From Candidatus Sungiibacteriota bacterium (GTDB taxonomy: Bacteria > Patescibacteriota > Minisyncoccia > Sungbacterales > HO2-52-23), in contig JACPBG010000002.1 of the NCBI GenBank assembly GCA_016180435.1, positions 60,342-124,341 of the forward strand: a stretch of 64,000 nucleotides of DNA, given 5' to 3'. Below the pieces are notes generated by a model, which worked only from the letters and a program-made list of their open reading frames with translations, did not search any database and had not been told where the DNA came from. How positions within the stretch are numbered: position 1 is the stretch's first letter; each line of letters opens with the position of its first letter. Shown here piece by piece: positions 3 through 63,847 of this stretch. The position numbers and the translations under genes are program-made.

Positions 3-947
3 CCTAACCCGGATGTGATGTGTAACCGTCATATTAAGTTCGGGCTGTTTCTTAAACGTGCTCTGAAAGAGGGGGCGGATTTTATAGCGACCGGACACTA
101 TGTGCGCTTAAGCGCAAGAACTAAGAGCTTAGAACTTAGAACTAAGAAAAATCTGATGCTAAGTTCTAAGTCCTATATTCTAAGTTCTGCGGCCGATGCC
201 GCCAAGGACCAGTCCTATTTCCTTTGGACTCTTGCGCAAGACCAATTAAAACATTGTCTTTTTCCGATCGGGGAATACACTAAGCCCGCGGTACGGGAAA
301 TGGCGCGAAAATTCGGTTTGCCGGTTGCGGAAAAGCCGGATTCGCAAGGAGTGTGTTTTATCGGGGAATTTGACATGAAAGAATTTTTAAAAAAGCGGAT
401 TCCAGAATCGCGCGGACCGGTTGTGACAACCAGCGGCAAAAAAGTGGGGGAGCATGAGGGGCTTTCGTTTTATACCATTGGACAGCGACATGGGATGGGG
501 ATTGGGGGCCGCCCCGCAGAGCGGGGCGAGCCTCGCCCCAAAGGGGCGGGCGGGATTCCATATTATGTCGTGGCTAAGGATTTTAAAACCGACACGCTTA
601 TTGTCGGAGAGGGGCCTTATGACGAGAAATTATTCAAGAAAGAACTTATCGCCACAAATGTAAATTGGATTTTCGGGAAAGAGCCAAAATTACCTTTAAA
701 ATGCGAGGCGCGAATTAGGTATCGCCAGCCGTTACAACGCTGTCGCGTTGAAGCAAATAAAGAACTTAGAACTAAGAACTTAGAAAGAAAACTAAGTTCT
801 AAGTTCTATATGCTAAATGCTTGCCGCGTCAAAGTTATTTTTGATGCGGTACAACGCGCCGTAACTCCCGGCCAGTCAGTGGTATTTTATCAGGGAGATG
901 AAATGTTGGGGGGCGGAATTATTTACCCCGTTAGAGATGCGGAATAA
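3..947 (+). CDS. mnmA: tRNA-specific 2-thiouridylase MnmA, 5'-truncated by the window edge
   Basis: The frame is open from nt 3. It carries the motifs NPDVMCNRHIKF, ATGHY, KDQSYFL, GQRHGMGIGG and TPGQSVVFY. It contains four repeat-derived segments (see findings). Confidence 0.9.
   Translation, partial: PNPDVMCNRHIKFGLFLKRALKEGADFIATGHYVRLSARTKSLELRTKKNLMLSSKSYILSSAADAAKDQSYFLWTLAQDQLKHCLFPIGEYTKPAVREMARKFGLPVAEKPDSQGVCFIGEFDMKEFLKKRIPESRGPVVTTSGKKVGEHEGLSFYTIGQRHGMGIGGRPAERGEPRPKGAGGIPYYVVAKDFKTDTLIVGEGPYDEKLFKKELIATNVNWIFGKEPKLPLKCEARIRYRQPLQRCRVEANKELRTKNLERKLSSKFYMLNACRVKVIFDAVQRAVTPGQSVVFYQGDEMLGGGIIYPVRDAE
116..189. repeat. R1 heptamer palindrome (TTAGAAC)n ... (GTTCTAA)n, in-frame inside mnmA
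   Basis: The sequence is agcttagaacttagaactaag ... gctaagttctaagtcc..ctaagttct. Confidence 0.85.
508..557. repeat. R2 GC-rich palindromic element, in-frame inside mnmA
   Basis: gccgccccgcagagcggggcgagcctcgccccaaaggggcgggcgggattc. It is near-identical to 54571-54621. Confidence 0.85.
759..830. repeat. R1 heptamer palindrome, second in-frame copy inside mnmA
   Basis: agaacttagaactaagaacttagaa ... ctaagttctaagttcta. Confidence 0.85.
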
Positions 948-11786: not shown

Positions 11787-12230
11787 TTGGGTAAAAAGCG
11801 TATCATAACTAAATCTACCGAGTCATCCGAATCGAAAAAATCCGATAGCCAGCCGCCAGCCGGAATTTCGGTAACGCGGCGTGGCATACTGCGCGGTTGC
11901 GCTTATATTCAGGCAACTTATAATAACACCATTATTACCATAACCGACGAAAAGGGCGGCGTGATAGCGTGGTCTTCGGCCGGGTCCGTTGGATTTTCGG
12001 GAACCAAGAAAGCCACTCCGTTTGCAGCAGCGCGAGTCGCGGAATTCCTTGCTGAAAAAATGCGTAAAGCCGGTATTCAGGAGCTTATGGTTTTTGTAAA
12101 AGGGGTTGGATCAGGGCGTGATTCGGCGATTCGTGCGCTTGCCAATCAGGGGTTTGCCATTTCGCGCATCAAAGATATTACCCCCATCCCGCATAACGGG
12201 CCGAGACCCAGGAAACCAAGAAGAGTATAA
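11787..12230 (+). CDS. rpsK: 30S ribosomal protein S11
   Basis: TTG start directly after the GCGAAGC hairpin. The sequence shows [24 protein letters not shown] and [17 protein letters not shown]. Confidence 0.9.
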
Positions 12231-12323
12231 AGCACTTAGAACTTAGAACCTAGAACTTAGAATTTATAATTAAAGTATTTACTAAGTTCTAAATACTAAG
12301 ATCTAAGTTCTTTTGCGAAGCAA
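12231..12323. repeat. R1 heptamer palindrome plus GCGAAGC mini-hairpin (rpsK-rpsD spacer)
   Basis: agcacttagaacttagaacctagaacttagaa ... ctaagttctaaatactaagatctaagttct-tttGCGAAGCaa-ATG. Confidence 0.9.
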
Positions 12324-12944: not shown

Positions 12945-12954
12945 ACACTAGACA

Positions 12955-13074
12955 GTGATGCCAATCCGATGCGAATTTAATGCCAATTTGGCGAATTGCG
13001 AATGAATTTAAAGATTAGCAATTTGTAGATTAGCATTTTATTTGTAGATTTGCATCATTGCGTGCGAAGCATAT
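12955..13074. repeat. R4 palindromic element plus GCGAAGC mini-hairpin (rpsD-rpoA spacer)
   Basis: gtgatgccaatccgatgcgaatttaatgccaa...attagcaatttgtagattagca...tttgtagatttgcatcattgcgtGCGAAGCatat-ATG. Second copy at 29546-29671. Confidence 0.85.
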
Positions 13075-14054: not shown

Positions 14055-14194
14055 TTCGGCTAATTTGATTTCAGACACGACTCGGCGGCTCCGGCGGCCG
14101 CCTCGCTAAGGGTCGGACAAATTTTCGTCCCGATTGCGATCGGGACGATCCGAGCAAATTTGTCCTCCCATTGTCTGAAATCAAAATAGCCTCG
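14055..14194 (+). repeat. R3 structured intergenic element, copy 2 (rpoA-rplQ spacer)
   Basis: Same core as copy 1, but the P2 stem is changed to GGCGGC/GCCGCC. Confidence 0.8.
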
Positions 14195-14595: not shown

Positions 14596-14667
14596 AGAAC
14601 TTAGAACTTAGAACTTAGAACTTAGATATCTACTAAGTTTTAAATGCTAAGTTCTAAATGCTATGCG
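14596..14667. repeat. R1 heptamer palindrome (rplQ-rplM spacer)
   Basis: agaacttagaacttagaacttagaacttag ... ctaagttttaaatgctaagttctaaatgct, then a hairpin around the ATG. Confidence 0.9.
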
Positions 14668-15009
14668 ATGGAGCATCGCATTGATGCAGCTAATCAAATA
14701 CTCGGACGTCTGGCAACTCGCGTTGCGGTTCTTTTGCGCGGTAAAGATCGGCCTGATTTTGATCCGGCGCGTTTTTCCGATAACAAGGTGGCGGTTCATA
14801 ATACCGATAAAATGCGCGTGACCGGAAAGAAGATGCCGCAAAAAAAATATCGGCGGCATTCCGGTTACCCCGGCGGCTTGAAAGAAGAAGCGCTTGAGCG
14901 CCTTTTCGCACGCGACTCGCGTGAGGTTTTGCGCCGCGCGGTTTTAGGGATGCTCCCGAAAAATCGCCTGCGCAGTAGATGGATAAAGAATCTGATACTA
15001 CGTAAATAA
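14668..15009 (+). CDS. rplM: 50S ribosomal protein L13
   Basis: IDAANQILGRLATRVAVLLRGK and YRRHSGYPGGLK. The in-frame ATG at 14668 is preferred because the track start at 14644 lies inside the repeat element. Confidence 0.85.
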   Translation: MEHRIDAANQILGRLATRVAVLLRGKDRPDFDPARFSDNKVAVHNTDKMRVTGKKMPQKKYRRHSGYPGGLKEEALERLFARDSREVLRRAVLGMLPKNRLRSRWIKNLILRK

Positions 15010-15027
15010 CAAATGGTAAATGGCAGA

Positions 15028-15062
15028 CAACTAACAACTAACAACTAACAACTAACAACTTA
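15028..15062 (+). repeat. tandem heptamer (CAACTAA) x5 in the rplM-rpsI spacer
   Basis: caactaacaactaacaactaacaactaacaactta. Confidence 0.85.
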
Positions 15063-27215: not shown

Positions 27216-28199
27216 GTGATTATCGGGCACGAACGGCAAATTGAATATCTGGAAAAAATCATAAGACGCGGGCGCATGTCCCACGCCTATTTATTTTTTG
27301 GTCCGGAACATGTAGGAAAATTCGCATTAGCCAAGGAAATTGCGCGTGTTTTAATGTGCCCGAATAAGAATAAGATCGGCGATGCCGGAGACGGATGCGC
27401 GGATTGCCGTCAAATTGAACAGGATATTCATCCCGGCGTAATAATTCTTGATATTGAACACACTCTTGTCTCCAAGAAAGAAATTCGTAAAGACATTCCG
27501 ATTGAAGATATACGGGAACTGAAACGCCGATTTTCTTTTGCTCCGGAGCAAGGAAAGTGGCGGATCGCTATAATTAATGAAGCGGAGAAATTAAGTGCCG
27601 AGGCCGCCAATGCGTTTTTGAAATTATTGGAAGAGCCGGGAGCGCGGACTCTTTTTTTGCTGGTAAGTTCGACGTATGATTCGGTTTTGCCGACCATTGT
27701 TTCGCGCGCCGAGCCGCTTAGATTTTCTTTGGTGTCAGATGCGATTTTGCGTGAATTTTTAGAACAAAAAAAGATAAGTCAAGATCAACGGGAATCTATT
27801 TTGAAACTTGCGGCCGGGCGCTCCGGGATTGCCATAAGATCCGTCGAGGATCCGTCTTATTTCATAAAACAGAAAAAAATACGGGATGAAATTGAATCAA
27901 TCCTCTCGTGCAAAGATATTCCGTCGGCTCTGGCCCTTACCGAGCGGGTTGCCAAAGACAAGGAGATGTTGAAAACCGCGGCTGATTTTTTGATCCGTTC
28001 ATTGCGCGATAACATCATCGCAACCATTCTGGAGTCCAAGACGTATCATACCAAAGTGGGACGGCTTAAAGAGATCCACCGCATTCTTTCCATAATAGAG
28101 TCCACCAACGTCAATCCGCGTCTGGCTATGGATGTGATGTTGATGGAGGCGTTAACCACTAACAGCACGAACAGCTTTGTCTATGGGTTTAGGTTGTAG
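27216..28199 (+). CDS. holB: DNA polymerase III subunit delta'
   Basis: HAYLFFGPEHVGK, a Zn-module-like CPNK..C..C, and SRAEPLRF. The last ~14 codons and the stop lie inside a repeat element. Confidence 0.8.
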   Translation: MIIGHERQIEYLEKIIRRGRMSHAYLFFGPEHVGKFALAKEIARVLMCPNKNKIGDAGDGCADCRQIEQDIHPGVIILDIEHTLVSKKEIRKDIPIEDIRELKRRFSFAPEQGKWRIAIINEAEKLSAEAANAFLKLLEEPGARTLFLLVSSTYDSVLPTIVSRAEPLRFSLVSDAILREFLEQKKISQDQRESILKLAAGRSGIAIRSVEDPSYFIKQKKIRDEIESILSCKDIPSALALTERVAKDKEMLKTAADFLIRSLRDNIIATILESKTYHTKVGRLKEIHRILSIIESTNVNPRLAMDVMLMEALTTNSTNSFVYGFRL

Positions 28200-28274
28200 A
28201 TGCCGGTATGGCGGGAGGGTTTTAGGCATAAGGCCCTAAAACTAATACCCTAAAACCGGACCGGCTTCTAAAAC
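28157..28274 (+). repeat. R6 element, copy 1, overlapping the holB 3' end
   Basis: cactaacagcacgaacag...gggtttaggttgtagatgcc...gggttttaggcataaggccctaaaac...cttctaaaac. An inverted copy lies at 43143-43264. Confidence 0.85.
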
Positions 28275-28292
28275 ATACACCTCATAACAGTT

Positions 28293-29543
28293 TTGTTGGT
28301 GTTGTTTGCGAAATTGAGAATTTTACTTGCTATTTTAGTTGTTATACTTGTAATTGTCGTTGTCTTCCCGTTTGTTTTGAATATGGCAGGTTTATCTGCG
28401 CCGCAGTTTGCTTTCGTAGGAGATGCGGCAAGCGAACGCGCCGGTGAAGCCGGCATATGGCGTTCGGAAAACGGCGGCATATCCTGGAAAGAAATAAGAT
28501 TTCAAACCGGAGGCAACCCATTGCCGTTATCCATCCATGATTTGACGTTCCATCCCCATTATCGCGATACAGTATTGATGGGAACGCGGGGAAATGGACT
28601 TTGGAAAAGCGATAATAACGGCATGTCATGGAAAAGAATCAATGACCGCGCGGGTATTTTGCAAAATAATGCGGATATTTACGGGGCGGCAGTAAGTCCG
28701 GCAAGCCCCGCGGTTTGGTATGTGGCTGCATATCAAAACGGCCGCGGGGAAGTATTGAAGAGTTTGGACGGCGGATCAAGTTTTGCAAAGATATATCATT
28801 TAAACGGGGGCGGAATTCCGATTGTCGGCCTATTCGCATATGCCGATAATTCTGAGCGGGTTCTTATTGCTACGGCCAATGGCGGTTTTTTGCAGACAAG
28901 CGACGGAGGCGCAAGTTGGGGATCCGTTTCATGGAGTTCCGGAAATATTACAGCCATACGCGTGAACCCGGCAAACCCGGACGAAATAATTATTTGGATA
29001 GCCGGAGGTAAAATAATGCGCTCGCAAGATGGCGGCCTGACTTGGCGTAGTGTTAATTCACCGGACCGGGGCGAAACTTCCGGGATGTTTTCGTATAATG
29101 GTCCGCGCGTGGGACAAGAATCCGCCGGTTTGAGTACTGATTCCTTGCCGCCGGATAATTCATCCAAGCCGGGTTTTCAATTTGATCTTGGAGCGATTTT
29201 TTCACCCTTGAATAAGGGATCCGATGATTTTATAATAAGTCCATCGGATAGGAGAGCGCGTTATTTAAAATCCGGAAGTAATATTTATCGTTCGGGAGAC
29301 GGCGGCGGCTCATGGAATCCGGTCCACACCTCGCTTTCTCCGCGTACGCGTTTGGATGCGGTTGCCGTTGATCCGTTCAATGCTGATAATGTTTTTTTTA
29401 CAGCGTCCGGGGAATTTCATAAGAGTACGGATGGCGGCGCTACGTGGGAAATGCGCGATTTGCCGCCCAATATGAAGGGAAGAATTAGAATATTACGGAT
29501 AAGTACGCATAATCCAGAGATAATGTTTGCGGTGACACAATAA
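28293..29543 (+). CDS. membrane-anchored BNR/Asp-box repeat protein (beta-propeller-like)
   Basis: N-terminal TM helix plus at least 7 SxDxGxxW-type boxes (SENGGISW, SDNNGMSW, SLDGGSSF, TSDGGASW, SQDGGLTW, SGDGGGSW, STDGGATW). The start codon is uncertain. Confidence 0.7.
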   Translation: MLVLFAKLRILLAILVVILVIVVVFPFVLNMAGLSAPQFAFVGDAASERAGEAGIWRSENGGISWKEIRFQTGGNPLPLSIHDLTFHPHYRDTVLMGTRGNGLWKSDNNGMSWKRINDRAGILQNNADIYGAAVSPASPAVWYVAAYQNGRGEVLKSLDGGSSFAKIYHLNGGGIPIVGLFAYADNSERVLIATANGGFLQTSDGGASWGSVSWSSGNITAIRVNPANPDEIIIWIAGGKIMRSQDGGLTWRSVNSPDRGETSGMFSYNGPRVGQESAGLSTDSLPPDNSSKPGFQFDLGAIFSPLNKGSDDFIISPSDRRARYLKSGSNIYRSGDGGGSWNPVHTSLSPRTRLDAVAVDPFNADNVFFTASGEFHKSTDGGATWEMRDLPPNMKGRIRILRISTHNPEIMFAVTQ

Positions 29544-29545
29544 AA

Positions 29546-29671
29546 GCAGTGATGCCAATCCTATGCGAATTTAATGCCAAGCTGGCGAATTGCGAATAAT
29601 TATTAGCATAATTAGCAATTTGTAGATTAGCATAAGATTTGTAGATTTGCATCATTGCGGTGCGAAGCACA
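29546..29671. repeat. R4 palindromic element plus GCGAAGC mini-hairpin, directly upstream of frr
   Basis: Near-identical to 12955-13074. It ends ...catcattgcggtGCGAAGCaca-ATG. Confidence 0.85.
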
Positions 29672-34500: not shown

Positions 34501-34544
34501 AACTGTATCTAAAATTACGCTTAAGCGTAATTTTAGATACAGTT
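34501..34544. repeat. 44-bp perfect palindrome with no loop
   Basis: AACTGTATCTAAAATTACGCTT is immediately followed by its exact reverse complement. Confidence 0.9.
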
Positions 34545-35439: not shown

Positions 35440-35603
35440 CTTTTTTCCGCCACGTGAAGGTACTATTGAAATGGTATGGCTGGGGATAAATAAAGTCAAA
35501 TACAAATACTTGCATTGTTAGTACAGTTATGCTATACTGTAATGTATAAGCTTAGTATTAAAACAATATAGGTCTTAGATATCAACATTTCTGTTGATGT
35601 TGA

Positions 35604-35705
35604 CCCCGTTAGAAAGAAACAAACATAGTAGTTCCAAAATTCCAAGCAATTTTTAACACAAGCCACGAATACGGCAATTAAAAACCTTTGTTTTTTTCTA
35701 ACGGG
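35604..35705. repeat. R7 element (CCCCGTTAGAAAG...TTTCTAACGGGG)
   Basis: About 20-bp terminal inverted repeats enclose an unrelated AT-rich core. Confidence 0.75.
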
Positions 35706-35723
35706 GTTGAAAGGCCATCCATA

Positions 35724-35869: not shown

Positions 35870-35998
35870 AGAAAATTCGAAATTCGAATAATGAAATTCG
35901 AAACAAATCCCAAATCATAAATTCAAATGTTTCAAACGTTTAGAATTTAGAATTTTGATATTGTTTAGAATTTAGAATTTAGAGTTTCGGATTTAGTA
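35870..35998. repeat. R8 heptamer palindrome (GAAATTC)n ... (TTAGAAT)n
   Basis: gaaaattcgaaattcgaataatgaaattcgaaac ... gtttagaatttagaatttt..gtttagaatttagaatttagagtttcgg. Confidence 0.8.
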
Positions 35999-36003
35999 TT
36001 ATA

Positions 36004-36204
36004 GTGGCTTTTCAAGATCAACAGGGAGGATTCCAGGATGATCGCCCGAAATACGACATCACCTGTTCCAAATGTGGTAATCAAGGAACGGTTCCGTTCC
36101 CGCCCACACCGGGACGCGATGTCTTCTGCCGCGATTGTTTCCGTCAGAATAATCCGAATCCCCGCCGCGAATTTCGCGGACGCGGAGGATACGGATCAAG
36201 ATAA
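36004..36204 (+). CDS. small zinc-ribbon protein with a CxxC-x17-CxxC motif
   Basis: GTG start. The motif is CSKC-17 residues-CRDC, followed by an Arg/Gly-rich tail. Confidence 0.5.
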   Translation: MAFQDQQGGFQDDRPKYDITCSKCGNQGTVPFPPTPGRDVFCRDCFRQNNPNPRREFRGRGGYGSR

Positions 36205-36301
36205 ATCTAAAGGCCGGGCATTGTCCGGCTTTTAGATTTATCAATCTCTAAGTTCTAATCTCTAATTTCTAATAAAACACTAAAAATGTTATTATAGCAG
36301 A

Positions 36302-37531: not shown

Positions 37532-37611
37532 TTTTAAATTCACGAATCTAGCCCGAATTTTATTCGCGAATATTCGCGAATTTAATTCGTGATTGATTAG
37601 CGAAAAATTTT

Positions 37612-41376: not shown

Positions 41377-43101
41377 ATGACACGACAATGCCAAAATTGT
41401 AACCAGAGCTTTGAAATTGCCCCCGAGGACCTTTCGTTTTACGACCGCATTCATGTCCCGCCGCCCACCTGGTGTCCAAGATGCCGGTTTCAGAGACGGC
41501 TCGCATTTTTTAATTTAACCGCGCTTTACAAGCGAAAATGCGATCTTTGCGGCGAGGAAAAAATTTCCATTTATCGTCCGGATGCGCCTTATAGAGTTTA
41601 TTGTCCGCCCTGCTGGTGGTCGGATAAGTGGGACCCTATGCAATATGGACGTGATTACGATTTTTCACGATCGTTTTTTGAGCAATACGCTGATCTTGTG
41701 CATGAGGTCCCGCACTGCGGCTTGGCAACTGACCATACGACGGTCATCAATTCAACCTATACCAATCACGCCGGAAATCTCAAAAATTGCTATTTGTTAT
41801 TCCAGGCGGATTTTAATGAGGACTGCGCGCACGGAGTATATGTTAAAAATTCAAGGTCCACGCTTGATTCCTCATTGATATTGAAATCCGAACTCTGCTA
41901 TGACTCCATGCACTCATATAAAAATAGCCATTGTGCGGGACTGCGAAGCCAGGTGACCAATTCGCTTGATTGTTACTTTCTCAAGGACTCATTTAATTGC
42001 CAGTATTGTTTTGCATCCGCCAATTTGCGAAATCGGAAGCATGTTATTTTTAATAAGCAATATTCTCCGGAAGATTATTTTAAGGAAATCGCGAGATGGG
42101 ATTTAGGTTCGTACGCCAAGTATCAAGAGATCAAATGTCTTGCCGAGGCGCACTGGAAAACTTTGCCGCCCAAGCCGCATATGGATGATTTTTCCGTAAA
42201 TTCATCGGGCAGCCATTACTTCCAGTGCAAAAACTGCAAGGATTGTTTTGAGGTGTGGGGCGAGGCCGAAGACAGTAAGTTTCTTTTTATGCTTTCCATT
42301 CCTCCGTTGAAAGATTGTTACGACGTATCAACCTGGGGCAATAATTTGCAGTTATCGTATGAATCATATGCAGTGGGCGAGCAGGGCGCCAATCTTAAAT
42401 TTTGTGCGGAGTCGGGTATCAATGCGCATTTACTGGAATATTGCAAGTTTACATTCGGAGGGGTGGAGGATTTCGGATGCGTTGGGTTGCGAAAGAAACA
42501 ATACTGTATCTTGAATAAACAATATACGAAAGAGGAGTATGAGAAAATGGTGCCAAAAATCAAGAAGCATATGGATGAAATGCCGTATATTTCAGAAATC
42601 CGAAATCCGAAGCACGAAATCCGAAAGATAATATATAAATACGGGGAATTTTTTCCGATAGAATTGAGTCCGTTTCCTTATAACGATACTGTGGCGCATA
42701 ATTTTTTCCCGCTTACCAAAGAAGATGCGTTGGCACGGGGATATAAATGGGGCGATAAAGAAAAAAGAGCTTATCCCATCACAATAAAGGCAAGCGATCT
42801 GCCGGATCATATCAAAGATGCGCCAGGTACCATTTTACAGGAAGTGATAGAATGTGTTGCATGCGGCCGGGGATTTAGAATCATTCCGATGGAGTTTAAA
42901 TTTTTACGAAAAATGAATTTGCCTTTGCCTCGGCAATGCCCGTTTTGCCGGATTGATGAGAAATTCACACTGTGGGTTAAAGATTTACGGGTTATCCCGC
43001 GGACGTGCGATAAGTGCGGCACATCGCTCACGACCAATTACACGCAAGAGGAAGCCCCTGTGATTTATTGCAAAGCATGCTATAATAATGAAGTAATATA
43101 A
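41377..43101 (+). CDS. large Cys-rich multi-zinc-ribbon protein, paralog P2 (574 aa)
   Basis: CQNC...FYDRIHVPPPTWCPRCR, a second knuckle CDLC...CPPC, central Cys-containing repeats, then C-terminal CVAC...CPFCR, CDKC and YCKACYNNEVI. About 33 Cys by manual count. Confidence 0.75.
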   Translation: MTRQCQNCNQSFEIAPEDLSFYDRIHVPPPTWCPRCRFQRRLAFFNLTALYKRKCDLCGEEKISIYRPDAPYRVYCPPCWWSDKWDPMQYGRDYDFSRSFFEQYADLVHEVPHCGLATDHTTVINSTYTNHAGNLKNCYLLFQADFNEDCAHGVYVKNSRSTLDSSLILKSELCYDSMHSYKNSHCAGLRSQVTNSLDCYFLKDSFNCQYCFASANLRNRKHVIFNKQYSPEDYFKEIARWDLGSYAKYQEIKCLAEAHWKTLPPKPHMDDFSVNSSGSHYFQCKNCKDCFEVWGEAEDSKFLFMLSIPPLKDCYDVSTWGNNLQLSYESYAVGEQGANLKFCAESGINAHLLEYCKFTFGGVEDFGCVGLRKKQYCILNKQYTKEEYEKMVPKIKKHMDEMPYISEIRNPKHEIRKIIYKYGEFFPIELSPFPYNDTVAHNFFPLTKEDALARGYKWGDKEKRAYPITIKASDLPDHIKDAPGTILQEVIECVACGRGFRIIPMEFKFLRKMNLPLPRQCPFCRIDEKFTLWVKDLRVIPRTCDKCGTSLTTNYTQEEAPVIYCKACYNNEVI

Positions 43102-43142
43102 ATAATTGCGAACAGCGCGAACCGAATTGTTATAGAGTGTAA

Positions 43143-43264
43143 GTTTTAGAAGCCAGTCTGGTTTTGGGGTATTAGTTTTAAGGCCTTATACCTAAAACCC
43201 CATGACTATACGGGCATCTACAACCTAAACCCATAGACAATTCAGATGTTAGTGCTGTTAGTGT
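43143..43264 (-). repeat. R6 element, copy 2 (inverted relative to copy 1)
   Basis: The reverse complement aligns along its whole length with 28157-28274, with scattered substitutions. Confidence 0.85.
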
Positions 43265-43276
43265 TTCATTAAATAT

Positions 43277-47249: not shown

Positions 47250-47411
47250 AATTTTTAACTTGATAATTTCGATCAGCTTGCTGGTCGGTCATCATCGGTA
47301 GGTTCTCGACAGGCTCGAACAATATTTATAGTGAGCCGCGTCGAACTATTCTTCGAGCGAAGTCGAGAAGATACCTTTGATACCGACCTGCTTGCAGGTC
47401 GGAGGTTCATT
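47250..47411 (+). repeat. R5 long hairpin element, copy 1 (upstream of glgA)
   Basis: ttttaacttg.taatt.cga..agcttgctggtcggt...ggtaggttctcgac-aggctcgaacaatattt...ttcgagcgaagtcgagaagatacctttgataccgacctgcttgcaggtcggaggttcatt. Confidence 0.85.
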
Positions 47412-50783: not shown

Positions 50784-50948
50784 AAAGACCTCCTGCATAA
50801 TAAGCTTTCGTGACGAAATTTCAGAATTTTGTGCGAAAACGGCGAAGCGCGAGGCGGCGTATATGGCATATATACGCCAACGAGCGATGAGCCGTTTGCA
50901 GCCAAAATTCTGAAATTGCAGTAGAAATGTTATTTTGCAGGAGGTCTT
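50784..50948. repeat. 165-nt imperfect palindrome between divergent GH13 and ROK-kinase genes; the right arm contains the ROK SD
   Basis: AAGACCTCCTGCA (50784-96) pairs with TGCAGGAGGTCTT (50936-48). Inner arms are aaatttcagaatttt/aaaattctgaaatt, aaacggc/gccgttt and ggcgtatat-ggc-atatacgcc. Confidence 0.85.
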
Positions 50949-52465: not shown

Positions 52466-52553
52466 AAGCACTTAGAACTTAGAACTTAGAACTTAGAAAA
52501 ATAACTAAGATCTAAGTTCTTAATGCTAAGTTCTACGTTGCCGAGCAACGTTG
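52466..52553. repeat. R1 heptamer palindrome plus terminal mini-hairpin (upstream of trxB)
   Basis: agcacttagaacttagaacttagaacttagaa ... ctaagatctaagttcttaatgctaagttct-acgttgccgagcaacgt. Confidence 0.9.
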
Positions 52554-52637
52554 TTGTATGACGTTATCATCATCGGCGGCCCGCCCCGATTTCTGTCGGG
52601 GCGAGGCTCGCCCACAACCTTATGTTATATGATGTAA
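52554..52637 (+). pseudogene. relic 5' end of trxB (LYDVIIIGG...) disrupted by a GC-rich element
   Basis: TTG-TTG-tat-gac-gtt-atc-atc-atc-ggc-ggc runs into the R2-like ccgccccgatttctgtcggggcgaggctcgccc and stops at 52635-37. It is out of frame with the real trxB start at 52622. Confidence 0.6.
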
Positions 52638-53593
52638 TAGTGGTGGGCGGCGGACCGGCCGCAGTTGCGGCGGCGGTTTATTGCGCGCGCAAACGCCTAA
52701 AGACCGTATTGATTACCGAATCATTCGGCGGGCAATCTATTGTTTCGGATGATATTCAGAATTGGATCGGCGAGCCGCATATTTCCGGTTTTGATTTGGC
52801 TAAAAAATTTGAAGATCATGTGCGAACATATCCTGATGTGGTTGATATTAAGATGCCGGAAAGGGCGATGGAAGTAAAATCAATTAAATGTACGGACGAC
52901 ACCCGCAACTGCGATTTTCAGGTAAAAACCGAGCAAGGGAATATATATGAAGGAAAAGCGGTAATTCTTACTGCTGGCGCGAGCCGCCGAAAACTTGGCA
53001 TACCCGGAGAGGAAAGGTTAAACGGCAAAGGAGTGGCGTATTGTTCAACCTGTGATGCTCCGTTATTCTCCGGCAAAAAAGTCGCGGTGGTGGGTGGAGG
53101 AAATGCCGGGCTGGAAGCGGTGATTGATCTTTTCCCTTATGCCGAGGAAGTTTATCTGGTGGAATACGGGGAGGCATTGAAAGGCGATCCGGTTACGCAG
53201 GAGGAAATTAAGAAAAATCCGAAATTAAAAGCAGTTATTTTGAACGCGCAAACATTAGAAGTGCTCGGTGATAAATTCGTGGCCGGATTAAAATATAAGG
53301 ATCGCATAACCAATGAAGAAAAGATTTTGGAGGTTGACGGGATATTTGTTGAAATCGGCTCGGTTCCTAACTCCGAAATGGTTAAAGGTTTGGTGGACTT
53401 GGATAAATACGGGCAGGTGGTTATTGATTCCAAGCACGCCTCCACCTCGCATCCGGGAATTTTTGCCGCCGGAGACATTACGGATGATCCGTATAAGCAA
53501 AATAACATCTCGGCCGGGGATGCGGTAAAAGCCGCTTTGGGCGCGTATAATTATTTATTGCAGAGAAAAAAAGAGAGTCCGGCGAGCGAATAA
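52622..53593 (+). CDS. trxB: thioredoxin-disulfide reductase
   Basis: YDVIVVGGGPAAVAAAVY, the redox-active CSTCDA, VVGGGNAGLEA and AAGDITD. Confidence 0.9.
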   Translation: MLYDVIVVGGGPAAVAAAVYCARKRLKTVLITESFGGQSIVSDDIQNWIGEPHISGFDLAKKFEDHVRTYPDVVDIKMPERAMEVKSIKCTDDTRNCDFQVKTEQGNIYEGKAVILTAGASRRKLGIPGEERLNGKGVAYCSTCDAPLFSGKKVAVVGGGNAGLEAVIDLFPYAEEVYLVEYGEALKGDPVTQEEIKKNPKLKAVILNAQTLEVLGDKFVAGLKYKDRITNEEKILEVDGIFVEIGSVPNSEMVKGLVDLDKYGQVVIDSKHASTSHPGIFAAGDITDDPYKQNNISAGDAVKAALGAYNYLLQRKKESPASE

Positions 53594-54015: not shown

Positions 54016-55410
54016 ATGTCAACATTCTTCGAAAACACTAAAAAATTTATTGAAGACGCCGTGCGTATCGCCTATATTCCGGGCGATATTTTAGGACGTT
54101 TGGAAAAACCGGATAAAGTATTAGAATTTGAAATTGCGGTTGGTGATAACCCCGTTAGAGACCCGATGCCTATGGCATCGGCAGACGCCGAAGGGCGTCT
54201 TGTCTCTAACGGGGCGAGAAAATTTCAAGCATGGCGTGTCCAACATAATAACATCCTTGGTCCTTACAAAGGTGGAATCCGCTATCATCCGGATTCAAAT
54301 TTGGATGAGGTAAAAGCGCTGGCCTCTTTGATGACTTTGAAAACCTCCCTTGCCGGGATTCTTTTTGGCGGAGCTAAAGGCGCGGTAAGAGTTGATCCGC
54401 GTAAATTATCCCTGCAGGAATTGGAAGAATTATCGCGCATGTACGTCCGTGCAATTTGGCAAGAAATCGGGCCGGAAAAAGATGTTCCGGCGCCGGATGT
54501 CGGCACTACCCCGCAAATTATGGATTGGATGACGGACGAATATTCGAAACTCATCGGAAAATTGAGTCCGGCCGCCCAGCAGAGTGGGGCGAGCCTCGCC
54601 CAAAATGGGCGGGCGGGATTCACTGGAAAATCTATAGAAAAAGGCGGTTCCCGCGGCCGCGATATTGCCACCGGTTTTGGCGGGTATGTAATTTTGAGAG
54701 AATTTTTAAATCTAAGTTCTAAGTTCTTAGTTCTAAGTTCTGAATCGCAACTAGTGGTTGCGATTCAAGGTTTCGGTAATGTCGGCGCAAATATCGCTAA
54801 AATCTTATATGAAAAAGGATTTAAAATCGTGGCCATTTCCGATTCCAAGGGGGCGCTTTATGAGGAAGATGGCATTGATATTAAAAAAGTTTTGGATGTA
54901 AAAGAAAAAACCGGCATTATAGATCGCAACAAGTGCTATGCGGTTTCCGAGGAGCGGCTGGCATCCGGTACTCCCTGTCGCGAATTTACCAACGATGATT
55001 TATTGCAAATGCCGGTGGATATTTTGATTCCGGCTGCGCTTGAAAATGTTATCAATGAAGCGAACGCGGAAAAAATTAGAGCTAAAGTAATTTTGGAAAT
55101 GGCCAATGGTCCGGTTACTCCCGAAGCTGAAAAAATATTCACTAAGCGAGGAATTGAGGTGCTACCTGATATTTTAGCCAATAGCGGGGGAGTGGTTGGA
55201 TCGTATTTTGAATGGGTGCAAAATCGTAAAGGAGAGCAATGGAGCGAGGAGGAGGTGCTTGCGAAAATTGATGAAAAATTGACCGAGGCGTTTCAGAGTG
55301 TACAAAAAATTAAGGAGGAATGCAATGTTTCGTGGCGTATGGCATCATACGTACGGGCGATTAAGAGGGTTGCGGAAGGGAATAAAAATCCGCCTTTTGG
55401 GGCGGTATAA
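54016..55410 (+). CDS. gdhA: Glu/Leu/Phe/Val-family glutamate dehydrogenase
   Basis: GPYKGGIRYHP, GGAKGAV, QGFGNVG and ANGPVTPEA. It contains three repeat-derived in-frame inserts. Confidence 0.9.
   Translation: MSTFFENTKKFIEDAVRIAYIPGDILGRLEKPDKVLEFEIAVGDNPVRDPMPMASADAEGRLVSNGARKFQAWRVQHNNILGPYKGGIRYHPDSNLDEVKALASLMTLKTSLAGILFGGAKGAVRVDPRKLSLQELEELSRMYVRAIWQEIGPEKDVPAPDVGTTPQIMDWMTDEYSKLIGKLSPAAQQSGASLAQNGRAGFTGKSIEKGGSRGRDIATGFGGYVILREFLNLSSKFLVLSSESQLVVAIQGFGNVGANIAKILYEKGFKIVAISDSKGALYEEDGIDIKKVLDVKEKTGIIDRNKCYAVSEERLASGTPCREFTNDDLLQMPVDILIPAALENVINEANAEKIRAKVILEMANGPVTPEAEKIFTKRGIEVLPDILANSGGVVGSYFEWVQNRKGEQWSEEEVLAKIDEKLTEAFQSVQKIKEECNVSWRMASYVRAIKRVAEGNKNPPFGAV
54150..54214. repeat. 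R7-type element in-frame inside gdhA
   Basis: CCCCGTTAGAGAC-ccgatgcctatggcatcgg-cagacgccgaagggcgtct-TGTCTCTAACGGGG. Confidence 0.8.
54571..54621. repeat. R2 GC-rich element in-frame inside gdhA
   Basis: gccgcccagcagagtggggcgagcctcgcccaaaatgggcgggcgggattc. Compare 508-557. Confidence 0.85.
54709..54766. repeat. R1 right arm plus terminal hairpin, in-frame inside gdhA
   Basis: aatctaagttctaagttcttagttctaagttct-GAATCGCAAC-tagt-GGTTGCGATTC. Confidence 0.8.
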
Positions 55411-57785: not shown

Positions 57786-59060
57786 ATGCGTCAGTCCATA
57801 TTATTTGGAAAAACGCTCCGTAAGGGGCCCAAAGACGAGATTTCAAAAAATGCCAACCTTTTGGTTCGCGGCGGTTTTGTGGCCAAAGAAATTGCCGGAA
57901 TATATTCTTTTTTACCGCTAGGTCTCCGGGTGCTTGATAAGATAGCCAGGATTATACGCGGAGAAATGAATGATGTTTTGGGAGCACAGGAGATTCTGAT
58001 GCCCGCACTCCACCCGATCGAGAATTACCAAAAAACCGGACGCGAAAAAATCGATGTGCTTTTTCACACGGAACTTGCATCAGGCGGCAAGTTGGTGCTT
58101 GGCCAAAGCCATGAGGAGATCGTGGTGCCCCTGGCAAAGCATTTTATTTCATCCTACCGCGATCTGCCGCTTGGGCTTTATCAAATTCAGACCAAATTTC
58201 GCAATGAACTTCGCGCTAAATCAGGCATGCTCCGCGGCCGCGAATTTATGATGAAAGATCTTTATTCATTTCATGCGGATGAAAATGATTTTGAAAAATA
58301 TTATGAGCGGGCGAAGATCGCATATAAAGATATTTTTGAAAAAGCCGGTTTAGGCGGACAAACCTATCTTACATTTGCCTCCGGCGGGACATTTTCCAAG
58401 TACTCCCATGAATTTCAGACCATAACCGAGGCCGGAGAAGACACCATTTATCTTTGTAAAGAATGTAAAATTGCGATAAATGACGAAATTATCGGGGAAC
58501 AGAAAAATTGCCCGCAATGCAATGCGCCTATAGCCAAATTATTGCAAGAAAAAGCAATCGAGGTCGGGAATATTTTTCCCTTAAAAACCAGATTTTCGGA
58601 CGCCTTTGGCTTGTCTTATATCGACAAATCAGGCCAGACGCATCCTGTGGTAATGGGATGCTACGGGATAGGATTGGGACGCGTTTTGGGCGCGATTGTA
58701 GAGGTACATAACGATAAAAACGGCATTATTTGGCCGGAAAGTGTGGCGCCGTATAAAGTGCATCTGATAGAACTTAGAACTAAGAATTTAGAACTTAGTG
58801 ATGATCCGGTACGCGGGGCAGCCGAAAAGTTATATAACCATCTGCTTGCTAAAGGAATTGAAGTGTTATACGATGACCGCGACGATAAAACAGCCGGAGA
58901 GAAATTCACGGATGCGGATTTGATAGGAATCCCGTGGAGAGTGGTTATTTCGGAGAAAACCGTTCAGCGAAATGCAATAGAAGTTAAAAAGCGTGATTCA
59001 CCCGGGAGTGAGTTGATGTCTGTGGTAAGTTTTCTCCAGAATTTAAAAGTAAAAATGTAA
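57786..59060 (+). CDS. proS: proline--tRNA ligase (no INS editing domain)
   Basis: Class II motifs RNELRAKSGMLRGREFMMKD and GCYGIGLGR, plus an anticodon-binding C-terminus. It contains a heptamer-repeat insert. Confidence 0.9.
   Translation: MRQSILFGKTLRKGPKDEISKNANLLVRGGFVAKEIAGIYSFLPLGLRVLDKIARIIRGEMNDVLGAQEILMPALHPIENYQKTGREKIDVLFHTELASGGKLVLGQSHEEIVVPLAKHFISSYRDLPLGLYQIQTKFRNELRAKSGMLRGREFMMKDLYSFHADENDFEKYYERAKIAYKDIFEKAGLGGQTYLTFASGGTFSKYSHEFQTITEAGEDTIYLCKECKIAINDEIIGEQKNCPQCNAPIAKLLQEKAIEVGNIFPLKTRFSDAFGLSYIDKSGQTHPVVMGCYGIGLGRVLGAIVEVHNDKNGIIWPESVAPYKVHLIELRTKNLELSDDPVRGAAEKLYNHLLAKGIEVLYDDRDDKTAGEKFTDADLIGIPWRVVISEKTVQRNAIEVKKRDSPGSELMSVVSFLQNLKVKM
58768..58800. repeat. R1 left arm in-frame inside proS
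   Basis: atagaacttagaactaagaatttagaacttag, translated IELRTKNLELS. Confidence 0.8.
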
Positions 59061-60212: not shown

Positions 60213-60998
60213 ATGCATCGCAATACTTTATTGTTAAGATTCTTCGCGGCAGCCATCCTTATCGGGATGTTTATTTTTTTAGGGTGGACTTCAATCGGAG
60301 GATCTGTACGCGGCGGAATTATTTATATTCTCTCTCCTTTATTGCGCTTATCGCAAGAAATAGGGATAAGCGCCGGCTTTTCCTCTTATAGAATTTCTGA
60401 AGATATGGCCAAGGAACTGGCCGGAGAAAATCAGGAATTATCGTCGTTGCGCGTCGAGGTTGAGTTTTTGCGCAAAGAAAATGAGGATTTGCGTTCGGCA
60501 CTTGGATTTAAGAAAGAATCCGGCCTCAATCTTTTTCCGGCAGATGTTGTCAGTTTTGCCAATGAATTAGGGCGCGAATTTTTGATCATAGCTGCGGGTG
60601 GGGAGTTCGGCATCCGCGAAGGAGACATGGCAGTGACGGCTGACCGCGTATTGGTTGGCATGGTGCGCGAGGCGGATCAGGGGTTTTCAAAAATAGAGAT
60701 CGCTTCCAATCCGCTGATTTCGTATGAAGTTAGATTAGTTCCGCTCGGAATTCCGGCCATCGCCAAAGGCATGGGAGGACGCACGTTTTCGCTTGAACTC
60801 ATTCCGCAGGATGCCGCGGTTAAAAAAGGCGATCTGGTTGCAGTTTCGGTTCCGGGAACGGATGAGCAGCTGCTTTTGGCGGAAATTGCCTCTGAAAAGA
60901 TCCTATCCGGTTCTATTTTTCAGGAGGCGCGCGCAGTTATGCTTTTGCGCCCCGAATTTCTTGAATCCGTTTTAATCATTCGGTCTAAGAAACCATAA
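60213..60998 (+). CDS. mreC: rod-shape protein MreC
   Basis: N-terminal TM helix, a coiled-coil (ELSSLRVEVEFLRKENEDLR) and a beta-rich C-terminus. It sits after mreB. Confidence 0.65.
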   Translation: MHRNTLLLRFFAAAILIGMFIFLGWTSIGGSVRGGIIYILSPLLRLSQEIGISAGFSSYRISEDMAKELAGENQELSSLRVEVEFLRKENEDLRSALGFKKESGLNLFPADVVSFANELGREFLIIAAGGEFGIREGDMAVTADRVLVGMVREADQGFSKIEIASNPLISYEVRLVPLGIPAIAKGMGGRTFSLELIPQDAAVKKGDLVAVSVPGTDEQLLLAEIASEKILSGSIFQEARAVMLLRPEFLESVLIIRSKKP

Positions 60999-60999
60999 A

Positions 61000-61105
61000 C
61001 CCCGTTAGAACGGGCGTTCCGCGACCAGCTTATGTGAGCATTATATTACTCCCATCAGCTATTGCTATTTCCACCACTGACAGAGTCAGCGGTGTTCTAA
61101 CGGGG
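61000..61105. repeat. R7 element in the mreC-mreD spacer
   Basis: CCCCGTTAGAAC ... GTTCTAACGGGG, enclosing an unrelated core. Confidence 0.8.
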
Positions 61106-61114
61106 TAAAATAAC

Positions 61115-63676: not shown

Positions 63677-63847
63677 AAATTTTAACTTGCTAATTCCGAC
63701 TAGCTTGCTGGTTGGTTACAATTGGTAGGTTCTCGACCCGCTTCGCTCTCGCTCCAGCGAGGCGAGCAGGCTCGAACAATATTTTTCGAGCGAAGTCGAG
63801 AAGATACCTTTGATGATACCGACCTGCTTGCAGGTCGGAGGTTCATT
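63677..63847 (+). repeat. R5 long hairpin element, copy 2, carrying a nested R2b insert, itself nested in a (CTAATTT)-type hairpin
   Basis: Same sequence as 47250-47411, plus 30 extra nt (63738-63767). It is flanked by cctaattatctaattgtctaatttctaataaaat and attttattagatgaattagaaattagg. Confidence 0.85.

What the first reader, a model, noticed from the sequence alone, without database searches (positions are those of the whole stretch)
54150..54766. gdhA carries three in-frame inserts from three different repeat families
- Segment 54150-54214 is a complete R7-type element (CCCCGTTAGAGAC...GTCTCTAACGGGG with two inner hairpins), giving PVRDPMPMASADAEGRLVSNGA.
- Segment 54571-54621 is the R2 GC-rich element, almost identical to the one in mnmA, giving AAQQSGASLAQNGRAGF.
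- Segment 54709-54766 is the right arm of an R1 heptamer palindrome with its terminal hairpin. It gives LNLSSKFLVLSSESQLVV immediately before the QGFGNVG dinucleotide-binding motif.
- The catalytic motifs remain intact.
- Together with mnmA, proS, holB and the redoxin, this shows systematic tolerance or selection of element-encoded peptides in core enzymes.
Basis: seen in the sequence. Interest (0 to 1): 0.6.

Follow-up and report, generated by a model that had tools for sequence, protein, structure and literature searches.

The report
Mobile palindromes translated inside glutamate dehydrogenase
An intact glutamate dehydrogenase gene of an uncultured Sungbacteria (CPR) bacterium carries three small repeated DNA elements inserted in frame, probably translated as extra loops; this resembles the palindromic elements of Rickettsia, but with new element families in a different bacterial group.

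Summary
The ORF at 54016-55410 encodes a 464-aa glutamate dehydrogenase, identical to a protein of a 'Candidatus Sungbacteria' metagenome-assembled genome. It holds three segments that recur elsewhere in the window.

- **A (54150-54214):** a 65-nt palindrome with a perfect 13-bp terminal inverted repeat. It adds 22 codons that the closest orthologues lack.
- **B (54570-54621):** 92% identical to a copy in mnmA. It adds 14 codons.
- **C (54709-54766):** four CTAAGTT heptamers plus a 10-bp hairpin. It is not a fresh insertion. In 7 of 8 orthologues examined, the strongest period-7 signal falls at this site, each with a different unit, and the net gain is 3 codons.

A belongs to a large family of small mobile elements. 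In 120 metagenome contigs, 80 of 131 copies have a perfect 4-bp target-site duplication of the form TNNA. Sixty percent have a frame-preserving length, and copies sit in frame inside genes such as uvrA and cinA.

The gene is under purifying selection (dN/dS 0.11), its catalytic residues are intact, and A and B are modelled as low-confidence loops. No transposase was found and translation was not shown.

The closest analogue is the Rickettsia palindromic elements. I file this as a new member of a known kind, apparently undescribed in CPR bacteria.

The parts
54016..55410 (+). gdh ORF (464 aa), the host gene
   Evidence: - ORF listed.
- Pfam domains ELFV_dehydrog_N and ELFV_dehydrog.
- E = 2.5e-93 to Thermotoga GDH 2tmg.
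- 100% identical to an NCBI 'Candidatus Sungbacteria' MAG protein.
- dN/dS = 0.11 against L001.
54150..54214 (.). Element A: a 65-nt palindromic MITE-like element. Inserted codons are N45-G66 (54148-54213).
   Evidence: - Found.
- Absent from L001.
- Belongs to a family with a 4-bp target-site duplication in metagenomes.
- Its orientation is opposite to the copies in L004 and L086.
54150..54162 (+). Left terminal inverted repeat of A (CCCCGTTAGAGAC)
   Evidence: - Exact match.
- Across the family the terminal repeat is 13 bp, and positions 11-13 covary.
54163..54181 (+). Inner hairpin 1 of A (CCGATGCC-TAT-GGCATCGG)
   Evidence: - Predicted in the fold.
- The same stem is present in L004 and L086 in inverted order.
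54183..54200 (+). Inner hairpin 2 of A (AGACGCC-GAAG-GGCGTCT)
   Evidence: - Predicted in the fold.
- Also seen in the element comparison.
54202..54214 (+). Right terminal inverted repeat of A (GTCTCTAACGGGG)
   Evidence: Exact reverse-complement match.
54570..54621 (+). Element B: a GC-rich palindromic repeat. Net insertion is Q188-G201 (54577-54618).
   Evidence: - 92% identical to 507-558.
- +14 codons against L001 and L004.
- Fold energy -32.5 kcal/mol, z = -2.7.
- Lies between the two Pfam domain envelopes, which cover residues 66-178 and 210-457.
54709..54741 (+). Element C, heptamer array (CTAAGTT x4): the right-arm type of the window's heptamer palindromes
   Evidence: - Found.
- T at 54728 turns the TAA expected in a perfect repeat into TTA (Leu238), read directly from the sequence.
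- It is the strongest period-7 window of the gene.
54742..54766 (+). Element C, terminal hairpin GAATCGCAAC-TAGTG-GTTGCGATTC. The 3' arm encodes the conserved V-A-I-Q strand before GFGNVG.
   Evidence: - Predicted.
- Codon alignment.
- No comparable hairpin is present in six of the seven other orthologues; L088 has a different long palindrome at this site.
507..558 (+). Second copy of element B, inside mnmA and read in a different frame (GRPAERGEPRPKGAGG)
   Evidence: - Repeat match.
- It is an insertion relative to PDB MnmA 9hln.
35603..35708 (.). Intergenic A-family element (106 nt) with target-site duplication TTGA
   Evidence: Seen.
60998..61106 (.). Intergenic A-family element (109 nt) with target-site duplication TAAA, between mreC and the next ORF
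   Evidence: Seen.
52466..52552 (.). Complete heptamer palindrome (R1 type) with its small terminal hairpin, intergenic, right after the stop codon of the DUF3105 gene. It serves as the reference copy for C.
   Evidence: - Seen.
- Fold energy -33.2 kcal/mol, z = -7.3.

Best explanation
gdh is a functional gene that has been colonised by small, non-autonomous palindromic mobile elements. These most likely stay in the mRNA and are translated as extra loops.

**Element A.** A is a 65-nt member of a large MITE-like family. The family has a 13-bp terminal inverted repeat, CCCCGTTAGAnnn, and duplicates a 4-bp TNNA target on insertion. A transposase supplied in trans, not identified, presumably moves it (inferred). 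An insertion survives inside a gene only if three conditions hold:
- Element length plus the 4-bp duplication is a multiple of 3.
- The frame is one of the two that are open through the terminal repeats. These read xPVR...SNGx or xPLE...LTGx, and the same holds in either orientation. The third frame has a TAG in the repeat.
- The insertion falls in a loop that tolerates extra residues.

In the window, A sits in the turn of the N-terminal beta-hairpin.

**Element B.** B is a second, GC-rich palindromic repeat. It sits in the linker between the two GDH domains, at a TTCA/TTTA site that other palindromes with CCCCGC...GCGGGG ends have hit in other lineages.

**Element C.** C occupies an old heptamer-array slot just before the Rossmann beta-A strand. 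The window's array carries the unit of the genome's own heptamer palindromes, through replacement, conversion or re-insertion (inferred). One A-to-T change removes the stop codon.

**Shown:**
- The repeats themselves.
- Insertion relative to orthologues.
- Target-site duplications across the family.
- The bias in frame and length.
- Purifying selection on the gene.

**Inferred:**
- Translation of the inserts.
- The transposition enzyme.
- The origin of C.
For: **A and B are lineage-specific gains.**
- Empty versus filled sites appear in the codon alignment of eight gdh genes.
- The window protein nests inside the insert-free clade P0002, P0003 and P0004.

**Independent hits in the same loop.**
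- L086 has the same element 4 codons upstream with a clean TGGA duplication. The empty site in L087 reads ATGGATGAC.
- The window copy is inverted relative to L004 and L086. Interior identity is 34/41 in reverse complement against 23/39 in the same orientation.
- L087 has a palindrome at site B flanked by a TTCA duplication.

**The A family behaves as a mobile element.**
- 131 copies were found in 120 metagenome contigs.
- 80 have a perfect 4-bp duplication, against 3 in a shifted control. 70 of the 80 are TNNA.
- 78 of 131 have length = 2 mod 3, against about 44 expected.

**In-gene copies are mostly open.**
- 23 copies are open with at least 40 codons on each side, against 9 mostly weak cases of disruption.
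- Hosts include UvrA, CinA, MurG, RtcB and pilin-like genes.

**The gene is alive.**
- dN/dS is 0.11 and the catalytic residues are invariant.
- The AlphaFold2 core matches hexameric GDH structures at TM 0.90-0.93. Inserts A and B are low-confidence loops.
- No terminator-like site is created on the + strand.

**The same families are true insertions in mnmA**.
Against: - No transcript or peptide data exist, so translation of the inserts is only inferred.
- No transposase was found in the 64-kb window or next to any copy.
- The window's A copy has no target-site duplication (ATAA on the left, CGAG on the right) and adds 66 nt, not 69. Yet its stems are perfect, which is not what simple ageing predicts.
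- The left end of B overlaps native codons and shows no duplication, so its mode of insertion is unclear. No other B copy was found outside the window.
- C can also be explained without any insertion (see rivals).
- A -49 kcal/mol hairpin inside an mRNA could have effects on expression that were not examined.
Confidence: 0.78

Rival explanations
1. Segment C is not an insertion at all. It is an ancestral heptanucleotide microsatellite in the linker before the Rossmann strand. It evolves in place by slippage and unit homogenisation. Its identity with the dispersed CTAAGTT palindromes is then convergence, or gene conversion from them.
For: - In 7 of 8 orthologues the gene's strongest period-7 window falls at this site. 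The units are in register (CTA at the same positions in the window, L001, L004 and L085) but differ in sequence.
- The net length difference from L001 is only 3 codons.
- Other heptamer arrays with other units are common in these genomes.
Against: - The window's unit is exactly that of at least 8 dispersed palindromes in the same window.
- As in the intergenic copies, it is followed by a small hairpin. Such a hairpin is absent from six of the seven other orthologues.
Confidence: 0.4
2. The inserts are adaptive. The element-encoded peptides were selected because they give GDH a new property, such as regulation, partner binding or stability, rather than merely being tolerated.
For: - The same loops are occupied repeatedly in different lineages.
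- A 35-aa A-family insert at a fourth site is kept across a clade, and its pN/pS is below 1 (0.48).
- The A peptide keeps ASADA in both orientations.
Against: - The closest relatives do without A and B.
- B is read in different frames in gdh and mnmA.
- The interiors of A-family copies are nearly all different.
- The inserts are predicted to be disordered.
- The ASADA symmetry follows from the palindrome itself.
Confidence: 0.1
3. The inserts are removed before the protein is made or matured, by RNA processing at the hairpins, DNA excision or protein splicing. In that case they are never part of the enzyme.
For: - A and C form very stable hairpins that could be processing sites.
- CPR genomes encode RtcB-type RNA ligases. 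One such gene is itself a host of the element.
Against: - Removal would not require a frame-preserving length or the absence of stop codons. Yet 35 of 36 copies in long open frames have length = 2 mod 3. Open-through copies outnumber disrupting ones by 23 to 9.
- A stop codon in C is removed by a point change.
- There are no intein motifs, and the inserts are far too short for inteins or known introns.
- There is no Rfam match.
Confidence: 0.04
4. The gene is a decaying pseudogene, or the inserts are assembly artefacts of a repeat-rich MAG.
For: - The protein is known from a single contig.
- The genome is crowded with repeats.
Against: - The 464-codon ORF is intact, dN/dS is 0.11 and catalytic residues are invariant.
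- The inserts are shorter than a sequencing read.
- Equivalent inserts occur in independent assemblies from other samples.
Confidence: 0.03

Closest known systems
Rickettsia palindromic elements (RPE; Ogata et al. 2000 Science 290:347, as summarised in PMC10969869)
   Same: - Short palindromic repeats dispersed through a small genome.
- Many are inserted in frame into unrelated housekeeping genes.
- They encode a peptide and are compatible with the host protein's fold.
   Different: - RPEs are about 100-150 bp and are confined to Rickettsia.
- From my own knowledge, they have no reported target-site duplication and no defined transposition mechanism.
- The elements here are 56-85 nt (up to about 109 nt) with a 13-bp terminal inverted repeat and a 4-bp TNNA duplication.
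- They occur in CPR/Patescibacteria and in many metagenomes.
- No sequence relationship to RPEs was tested.
Bacterial MITEs in general (Correia/NEMIS, ERIC, RUP, BOX, Nezha, cyanobacterial MITEs; review PMC10969869)
   Same: - Small size and no coding capacity for a transposase.
- Terminal inverted repeats and target-site duplications.
- Many copies, with filled and empty sites among relatives.
- Occasional in-frame fusion with host ORFs.
   Different: - The share of in-gene, in-frame copies is much higher here. About a quarter of copies lie in long open frames.
- The length distribution is quantised to 3n+2.
- The partner transposase family is unknown.
- A TNNA 4-bp duplication with CCCC...GGGG ends was not matched to any named IS family here.
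REP/BIME elements and their RAYT (Y1/HUH) transposases
   Same: - Short GC-rich palindromes at high copy number, often directly after stop codons. The window's heptamer palindromes between ribosomal protein genes look like this.
- A weak Y1_Tnp-like ORF lies in the related locus L086.
   Different: - From my own knowledge, REPs are extragenic, are not translated and make no target-site duplication.
- The A family makes 4-bp duplications and sits inside genes.
- No RAYT gene was found in the window.
Cyanobacterial STRR heptanucleotide repeats (own knowledge; mentioned in papers listed)
   Same: Tandem heptamer arrays, with several different units per genome, dispersed through the chromosome.
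   Different: - From my own knowledge, STRRs are described mainly as intergenic.
- Here the arrays form two-armed palindromes.
- One array sits in frame at a fixed site of gdh across a whole clade, and another in proS.
PARCELs (palindromic amphipathic repeat coding elements; PMC2996958)
   Same: A palindromic DNA repeat whose two orientations encode similar peptides inside ORFs.
   Different: - By its title and abstract, that paper describes a palindromic amphipathic repeat coding sequence, in the context of intragenic tandem repeats and surface repeat proteins of Mollicutes and of diverse bacterial and eukaryotic microbes.
- They are not single-copy insertions with target-site duplications in core enzymes.
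- Only the title and the start of the abstract were read here.

Membership tests
MITE (miniature inverted-repeat transposable element) | Small size with no transposase gene inside | tested here: met
   - A is 65 nt and family copies are 56-85 nt.
- B is 52 nt.
MITE (miniature inverted-repeat transposable element) | Terminal inverted repeats | tested here: met
   - For A: a perfect 13-bp repeat in the window.
- For the A family: 13 bp, with covariation at positions 11-13.
- For B: an imperfect 9-12 nt GC-rich repeat.
MITE (miniature inverted-repeat transposable element) | Target-site duplication | tested here: inconclusive
   - Met for the family: 80 of 131 copies are perfect at 4 bp, against 3 in the control.
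- Met for the two intergenic window copies, TTGA and TAAA.
- Met for the gdh copy in L086, TGGA.
- Not met for the window's own gdh copy of A (ATAA versus CGAG) or for B.
MITE (miniature inverted-repeat transposable element) | Multiple copies, with filled and empty sites among related genomes | tested here: met
MITE (miniature inverted-repeat transposable element) | A cognate autonomous element with matching ends | tested here: not met
   - No transposase domain was found in about 50 window ORFs.
- No solo pair of terminal repeats enclosing an ORF was found in 215 loci.
- Absence in this limited sequence is not proof of absence.
Rickettsia palindromic elements (RPE) | Sequence membership in one of the RPE families of Rickettsia | not tested
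   - No RPE consensus sequences were available in the tools.
- The host is a CPR bacterium, not Rickettsia, so membership is not claimed.
Rickettsia palindromic elements (RPE) | In-frame insertion into unrelated housekeeping genes, compatible with the protein fold | tested here: met
   - gdh.
- mnmA.
- UvrA and CinA in metagenome loci.
REP / RAYT system | Extragenic location and an associated Y1 transposase gene | tested here: not met
   - The elements lie inside genes.
- There is no Y1_Tnp hit in the window.
- Only a weak Y1_Tnp ORF was seen, in L086.
Intron or intein | Self-splicing RNA structure or intein motifs | tested here: not met
   - No Rfam family reaches its gathering score in the window.
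- The inserts are 14-22 aa, too short for an intein.
- Pfam finds only the two GDH domains.

The most novel reading that the evidence does not exclude
CPR/Patescibacteria harbour a previously undescribed superfamily of 'coding-compatible' miniature transposons. They have CCCCG...CGGGG ends and a 4-bp TNNA duplication. Their lengths are quantised to 3n+2, and their terminal repeats read as turn-forming residues in either orientation. On this reading they have evolved to survive inside genes. Together with lineage-specific heptamer cassettes, they would be a major and recurrent source of the extra loops seen in CPR core enzymes. One 420-aa enzyme family was hit at four separate sites, several times independently.
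Probability: 0.4. Interest if true: 0.75.

Novelty: new member of a known kind. Interest (0 to 1): 0.6.

Why it matters
In-frame palindromic 'selfish DNA' inside essential genes has been treated mainly as a peculiarity of Rickettsia.

This case adds several things:
- The same phenomenon appears in a distant, reduced-genome lineage.
- The element families have clear transposition footprints, with filled and empty sites.
- There is a simple length and frame rule for survival inside genes.
- That gives a tractable system for asking how mobile DNA creates new protein loops, and why CPR proteins so often carry lineage-specific insertions.

It also matters for practice:
- Such inserts inflate the apparent divergence of marker proteins.
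- They can mislead gene callers and structure predictors on CPR MAGs.

Tried and rejected
- **Genome-contig scan with the GDH alignment.** Only L005 was a Sungbacteria locus, so the taxonomic spread of the elements could not be read from it.
- **Rfam at gathering thresholds.** No hits.
- **Search for a mobilising enzyme.** Pfam scans of about 50 window ORFs found no transposase. A scan of all fetched loci found no solo terminal-repeat pairs enclosing an ORF.
- **Copies of B and of the heptamer palindrome in other loci.** The only hit was the shared proS heptamer array of L001 and L002.
- **Idea that the small hairpins next to heptamer palindromes are inverted duplications of the target.** Rejected as a general rule, because several copies share a TTGC-GAA-GCAA core. 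It remains possible for the gdh copy.
- **Idea of a conserved RNA hairpin at site C across orthologues.** Rejected. Only the window and L088 have a strong structure there.
- **Literature searches.** Searches for the terminal-repeat string, and for MITEs in CPR bacteria, found nothing relevant.
- **Mapping the inserts onto the hexamer interfaces.** Not possible, because the tools do not expose atomic coordinates.
Full report
**1. What is in the sequence**

The ORF at 54016-55410 (+) encodes a 464-aa protein.
- It has both GDH Pfam domains: PF02812 at residues 66-178 and PF00208 at 210-457.
- It matches hexameric GDHs in the PDB, with E = 2.5e-93 to Thermotoga 2tmg.
- It is identical to a protein of an NCBI 'Candidatus Sungbacteria bacterium' MAG on a 209,783-bp contig.

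*Segment A.*
- A has a perfect 13-bp inverted repeat, CCCCGTTAGAGAC, at 54150-54162 and 54202-54214. There are 3 window matches against 0.04 expected.
- It folds as a three-way junction at -49.2 kcal/mol, z = -9.6.

*Segment B.*
- B (54570-54621) is 92% identical to 507-558, inside mnmA.

*Segment C.*
- C is (CTAAGTT)x4 at 54712-54739, followed by the hairpin GAATCGCAAC-TAGTG-GTTGCGATTC at 54742-54766.
- The same heptamer builds at least eight two-armed palindromes elsewhere in the window.

**2. Are they insertions?**

I compared eight gdh genes at codon level: the window, L001, L004, L005 and L085-L088. L001 is a 21-kb locus of Parcubacteria GW2011_GWA2_45_30 that is syntenic with the window.

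Against L001:
- A is +22 codons (N45-G66).
- B is +14 codons (Q188-G201).
- C is +3 codons.

In a neighbour-joining tree of 25 Sungbacteria GDHs with the insert columns removed, the window protein nests inside the insert-free clade P0002, P0003 and P0004. A and B are therefore gains in the window's own lineage.

The host gene is under purifying selection, with dN/dS 0.11 and dS 0.92 against L001. The catalytic and cofactor residues are invariant: K85, K109, K121, D161, N364, S396 and the GFGNVG motif.

**3. What A is**

Other Sungbacteria GDHs carry the same kind of element in the same beta-hairpin loop.
- **L086.** It lies 4 codons upstream and is flanked by a clean TGGA duplication. The empty site in L087 reads ATGGATGAC.
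- **L004.** It is at the window's site but in the opposite orientation. The window interior matches L004 at 34/41 in reverse complement and only 23/39 in the same orientation.
- **L085.** It has a shortened copy whose terminal repeat, TCCCATTAGAAAT/ATTTCTAATGGGA, differs by three compensated pairs.

At least three independent acquisitions are needed to explain this pattern.

These hold 131 copies, of which 129 are distinct sequences.
- 80 have a perfect 4-bp flanking duplication, against 3 in a shifted control. 70 of the 80 fit TNNA; the commonest are TTTA, TAAA, TTCA, TTGA, TGAA and TCAA.
- The terminal repeat is 13 bp. Positions 11-13 covary, and complementarity drops to chance from position 14.

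Both intergenic window copies also have duplications. The copy at 35603-35708 has TTGA and the copy at 60998-61106 has TAAA.

This is the signature of a transposed, non-autonomous element.

**4. Why it can sit in genes**

With a 4-bp duplication, an element of length 3n+2 preserves the reading frame.
- 78 of 131 copies have such a length, against about 44 expected.
- 36 copies lie in open frames of at least 200 aa, and 35 of these have a 3n+2 length.
- They use only two frames: xPVR...SNGx (24 copies) and xPLE...LTGx (12 copies).
- The third frame contains TAG in the terminal repeat, in either orientation.

I also tested what happens if the element is removed.
- 23 copies are open with at least 40 codons on each side.
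- In 9 cases, mostly short ORFs, a frame is restored only by deleting the element.
- 93 copies are intergenic.

Hosts include UvrA, CinA (inside the MoCF domain), MurG, RtcB and polyprenyl synthase. Hosts also include pilin-like genes, where the insertion falls at the G|FT cleavage motif.

A 35-aa insert, APLEN...SLTG, present in several other Sungbacteria GDHs is a fourth-site copy of the same family. Between L086 and L087 its pN/pS is 0.48, against 0.24 for the rest of the gene.

**5. What B is**

B is a GC-rich palindrome with ends GCCGCCC/GGGCGGGC and a central hairpin GGGGCGAG-CC-TCGCCC.
- It is read as AAQQSGASLAQNGRAG in gdh and as GRPAERGEPRPKGAGG in mnmA, so the two copies use different frames.
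- It lies in the linker between the two Pfam domains.
- In other lineages the same TTCA/TTTA site holds different palindromes. L087 has a 65-nt element, CCCCGCCCTTGCA...TGCAAGAGCGGGG, with a TTCA duplication. L085 and L088 have a 26-nt mini-palindrome made of just those ends.
- The window's B has no recognisable duplication, and its left end overlaps native P-A-A codons. Its insertion history is less clear than that of A.

**6. What C is**

In 7 of 8 orthologues the strongest period-7 window of the whole gene lies 25-55 nt upstream of the QGFG codons. The units differ:

| Locus | Heptamer unit at site C |
|---|---|
| window | CTAAGTT |
| L001 | CTACAAC |
| L004 | CTAAnnC |
| L085 | CTAnACC |
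| L086 | G[CA]GACAA |
| L087 | GCGACAA |
| L005 | AGCTAAA |

L088 has a 41-nt perfect palindrome at this site instead.

So the site is an old heptamer slot.
- The window's version carries the unit of its own genome's palindromes.
- It also has a hairpin that is absent from six of the seven other orthologues.
- The 3' arm of that hairpin is the conserved V-A-I-Q coding sequence.
- A perfect heptamer run has a stop codon in every frame. Here T at 54728 turns TAA into TTA.

I cannot decide between replacement or conversion by a dispersed copy and homogenisation in place.

**7. Structure**

AlphaFold2 run on the 25-sequence alignment gives mean pLDDT 86.
- Residues 45-58 (in A) and 183-187 (at B) fall below 50.
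- The block containing C scores 70-79 and is modelled as an extension of the helix that leads into strand 247-251.
- The core superposes on hexameric GDHs at target-normalised TM 0.90-0.93.

No intrinsic-terminator-like site appears on the + strand inside the gene. I could not measure distances to the hexamer interfaces.

**8. Wider context in the window**

The partial mnmA ORF (15-947) carries two heptamer palindromes, one B copy and a solo A terminal repeat. The solo repeat supplies its last residues, YPVRDAE*. The first three are insertions relative to solved MnmA structures, of +13, +20 and +9 aa respectively.

No transposase domain was found in about 50 window ORFs. No autonomous copy was found in any fetched locus.

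**9. Comparison with what is known**

The closest analogue is the Rickettsia palindromic elements, which are in-frame and compatible with the host fold (review PMC10969869). The differences are:
- much smaller size,
- a defined terminal repeat,
- a 4-bp duplication,
- and a different host phylum.

By structure, A qualifies as a MITE, apart from the missing autonomous partner.

Full-text searches found no description of these elements or of MITEs in CPR bacteria. That library is incomplete, so novelty is probable rather than proven.

**10. Verdict**

- The word 'selection' also needs correction. The data show tolerance plus a frame and stop-codon filter.
- This is a new member of a known kind of phenomenon, and of moderate to good interest.

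Noticed in passing
window 15-947 (mnmA, partial ORF): One gene carries four element-derived segments:
- heptamer palindromes at 116-188 and 761-808;
- a copy of element B at 507-558;
- a solo A-family terminal repeat at 926-938 after a TTTA, which supplies the C-terminal residues YPVRDAE and then the stop.

The first three are insertions relative to PDB MnmA.
   Followed up: partly
window 52553-52621, upstream of trxB (52622-53593): - A dead copy of the first 9 codons of trxB (TTG TAT GAC GTT ATC ATC ATC GGC GG) lies upstream of the live start.
- A GC-rich palindrome at 52581-52615 separates the two.
- The dead copy is closer to the L001 orthologue than the live N-terminus is.
- It looks as if an insertion displaced the N-terminus and it was then rebuilt.
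   Followed up: partly
window 11245-11306, 11705-11788, 12234-12323, 14596-14680 (between rpsM, rpsK, rpsD, and upstream of rplM): - Two-armed heptamer palindromes fill the spacers of the ribosomal protein operon and start right after the stop codon.
- Each is followed by a small hairpin, several with a TTGC-GAA-GCAA core (the GCGAAGC type), which overlaps or abuts the next start codon.
- They may affect mRNA processing or translation initiation.
   Followed up: no
window 14061-14187 / 10950-11077; 29547-29669 / 12953-13071; 43108-43266 / 28154-28309; 63677-63847 / 47250-47411: - Four further two-copy repeat families of 120-170 bp, 79-91% identical, mostly intergenic.
- There are also long perfect or near-perfect palindromes at 34501-34544, 36200-36242, 37539-37604 and 50785-50948.
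- This is an unusually repeat-rich stretch for a small CPR genome.
   Followed up: no
window 15027-15060, 35873-35903, 35939-36000, 42595-42626: Heptamer arrays with other units: (ACAACTA)5, (AAATTCG)4, (TTTAGAA)9 and (GAAATCC)4-5. The genome therefore holds several heptamer 'flavours', as cyanobacterial STRR repeats do.
   Followed up: no
window 58768-58798 (proS) and L001 14616-14646: The in-frame TAGAACT heptamer array in proS is shared by the window and the L001 orthologue at the same site. It therefore predates their split.
   Followed up: partly
L086 11169-11269 and L087 1280-1380 (gdh of other Sungbacteria): A 101-nt A-family element (CCCCGTTAGAGAAT...CTTCTCTAACGGGG) gives the 35-aa insert APLEN...SLTG after EWVQS. 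It is conserved in a clade of GDHs and absent from the window.
   Followed up: yes
L101, L112, L138, L142, L152 (metagenome loci): - A-family elements are inserted at the TTTA/TTCA within the GFT codons of type IV pilin-like N-termini.
- This gives GFT-PLE...LTG-FTLIELL, so the cleavage motif is duplicated.
- The insert would be removed with the leader peptide.
   Followed up: partly
L086 4586-5278 (- strand): A 230-aa ORF with a weak Y1_Tnp (PF01797) hit lies 5 kb upstream of the gdh gene that carries the elements. It was not examined as a possible mobilising enzyme.
   Followed up: no
L088 about 5430-5475 (gdh site C): In place of a heptamer array, this orthologue has a near-perfect 41-nt palindrome in frame, CTTGGAGACTCCGTCTCCAAG/TTGGAGACGGAGTCTCCAAG, at -47.8 kcal/mol.
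   Followed up: partly
L210 5697-5725, L164 1245-1277 and 3834-3862, L118 9738-9769, L189 1086-1120; L085 3331-3356, L088 5265-5290: These are mini-palindromes of about 26-35 nt, made of just the two terminal repeats. They occur for both the CCCCGTTAGA and the CCCCGC families. They could be internal-deletion derivatives or excision footprints.
   Followed up: no
L209-L214 (IMG/VR viral contigs): Six contigs classed as viral contain a complete A-family element. This hints at a vehicle for spread, or at misclassified CPR contigs.
   Followed up: no
L096 114-200 and L099 (metagenome loci): An A-family element sits exactly inside a CCCCGCTGCTCG...CGAGCAGCGGGG palindrome. The two palindrome families therefore nest or form composites.
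   Followed up: no
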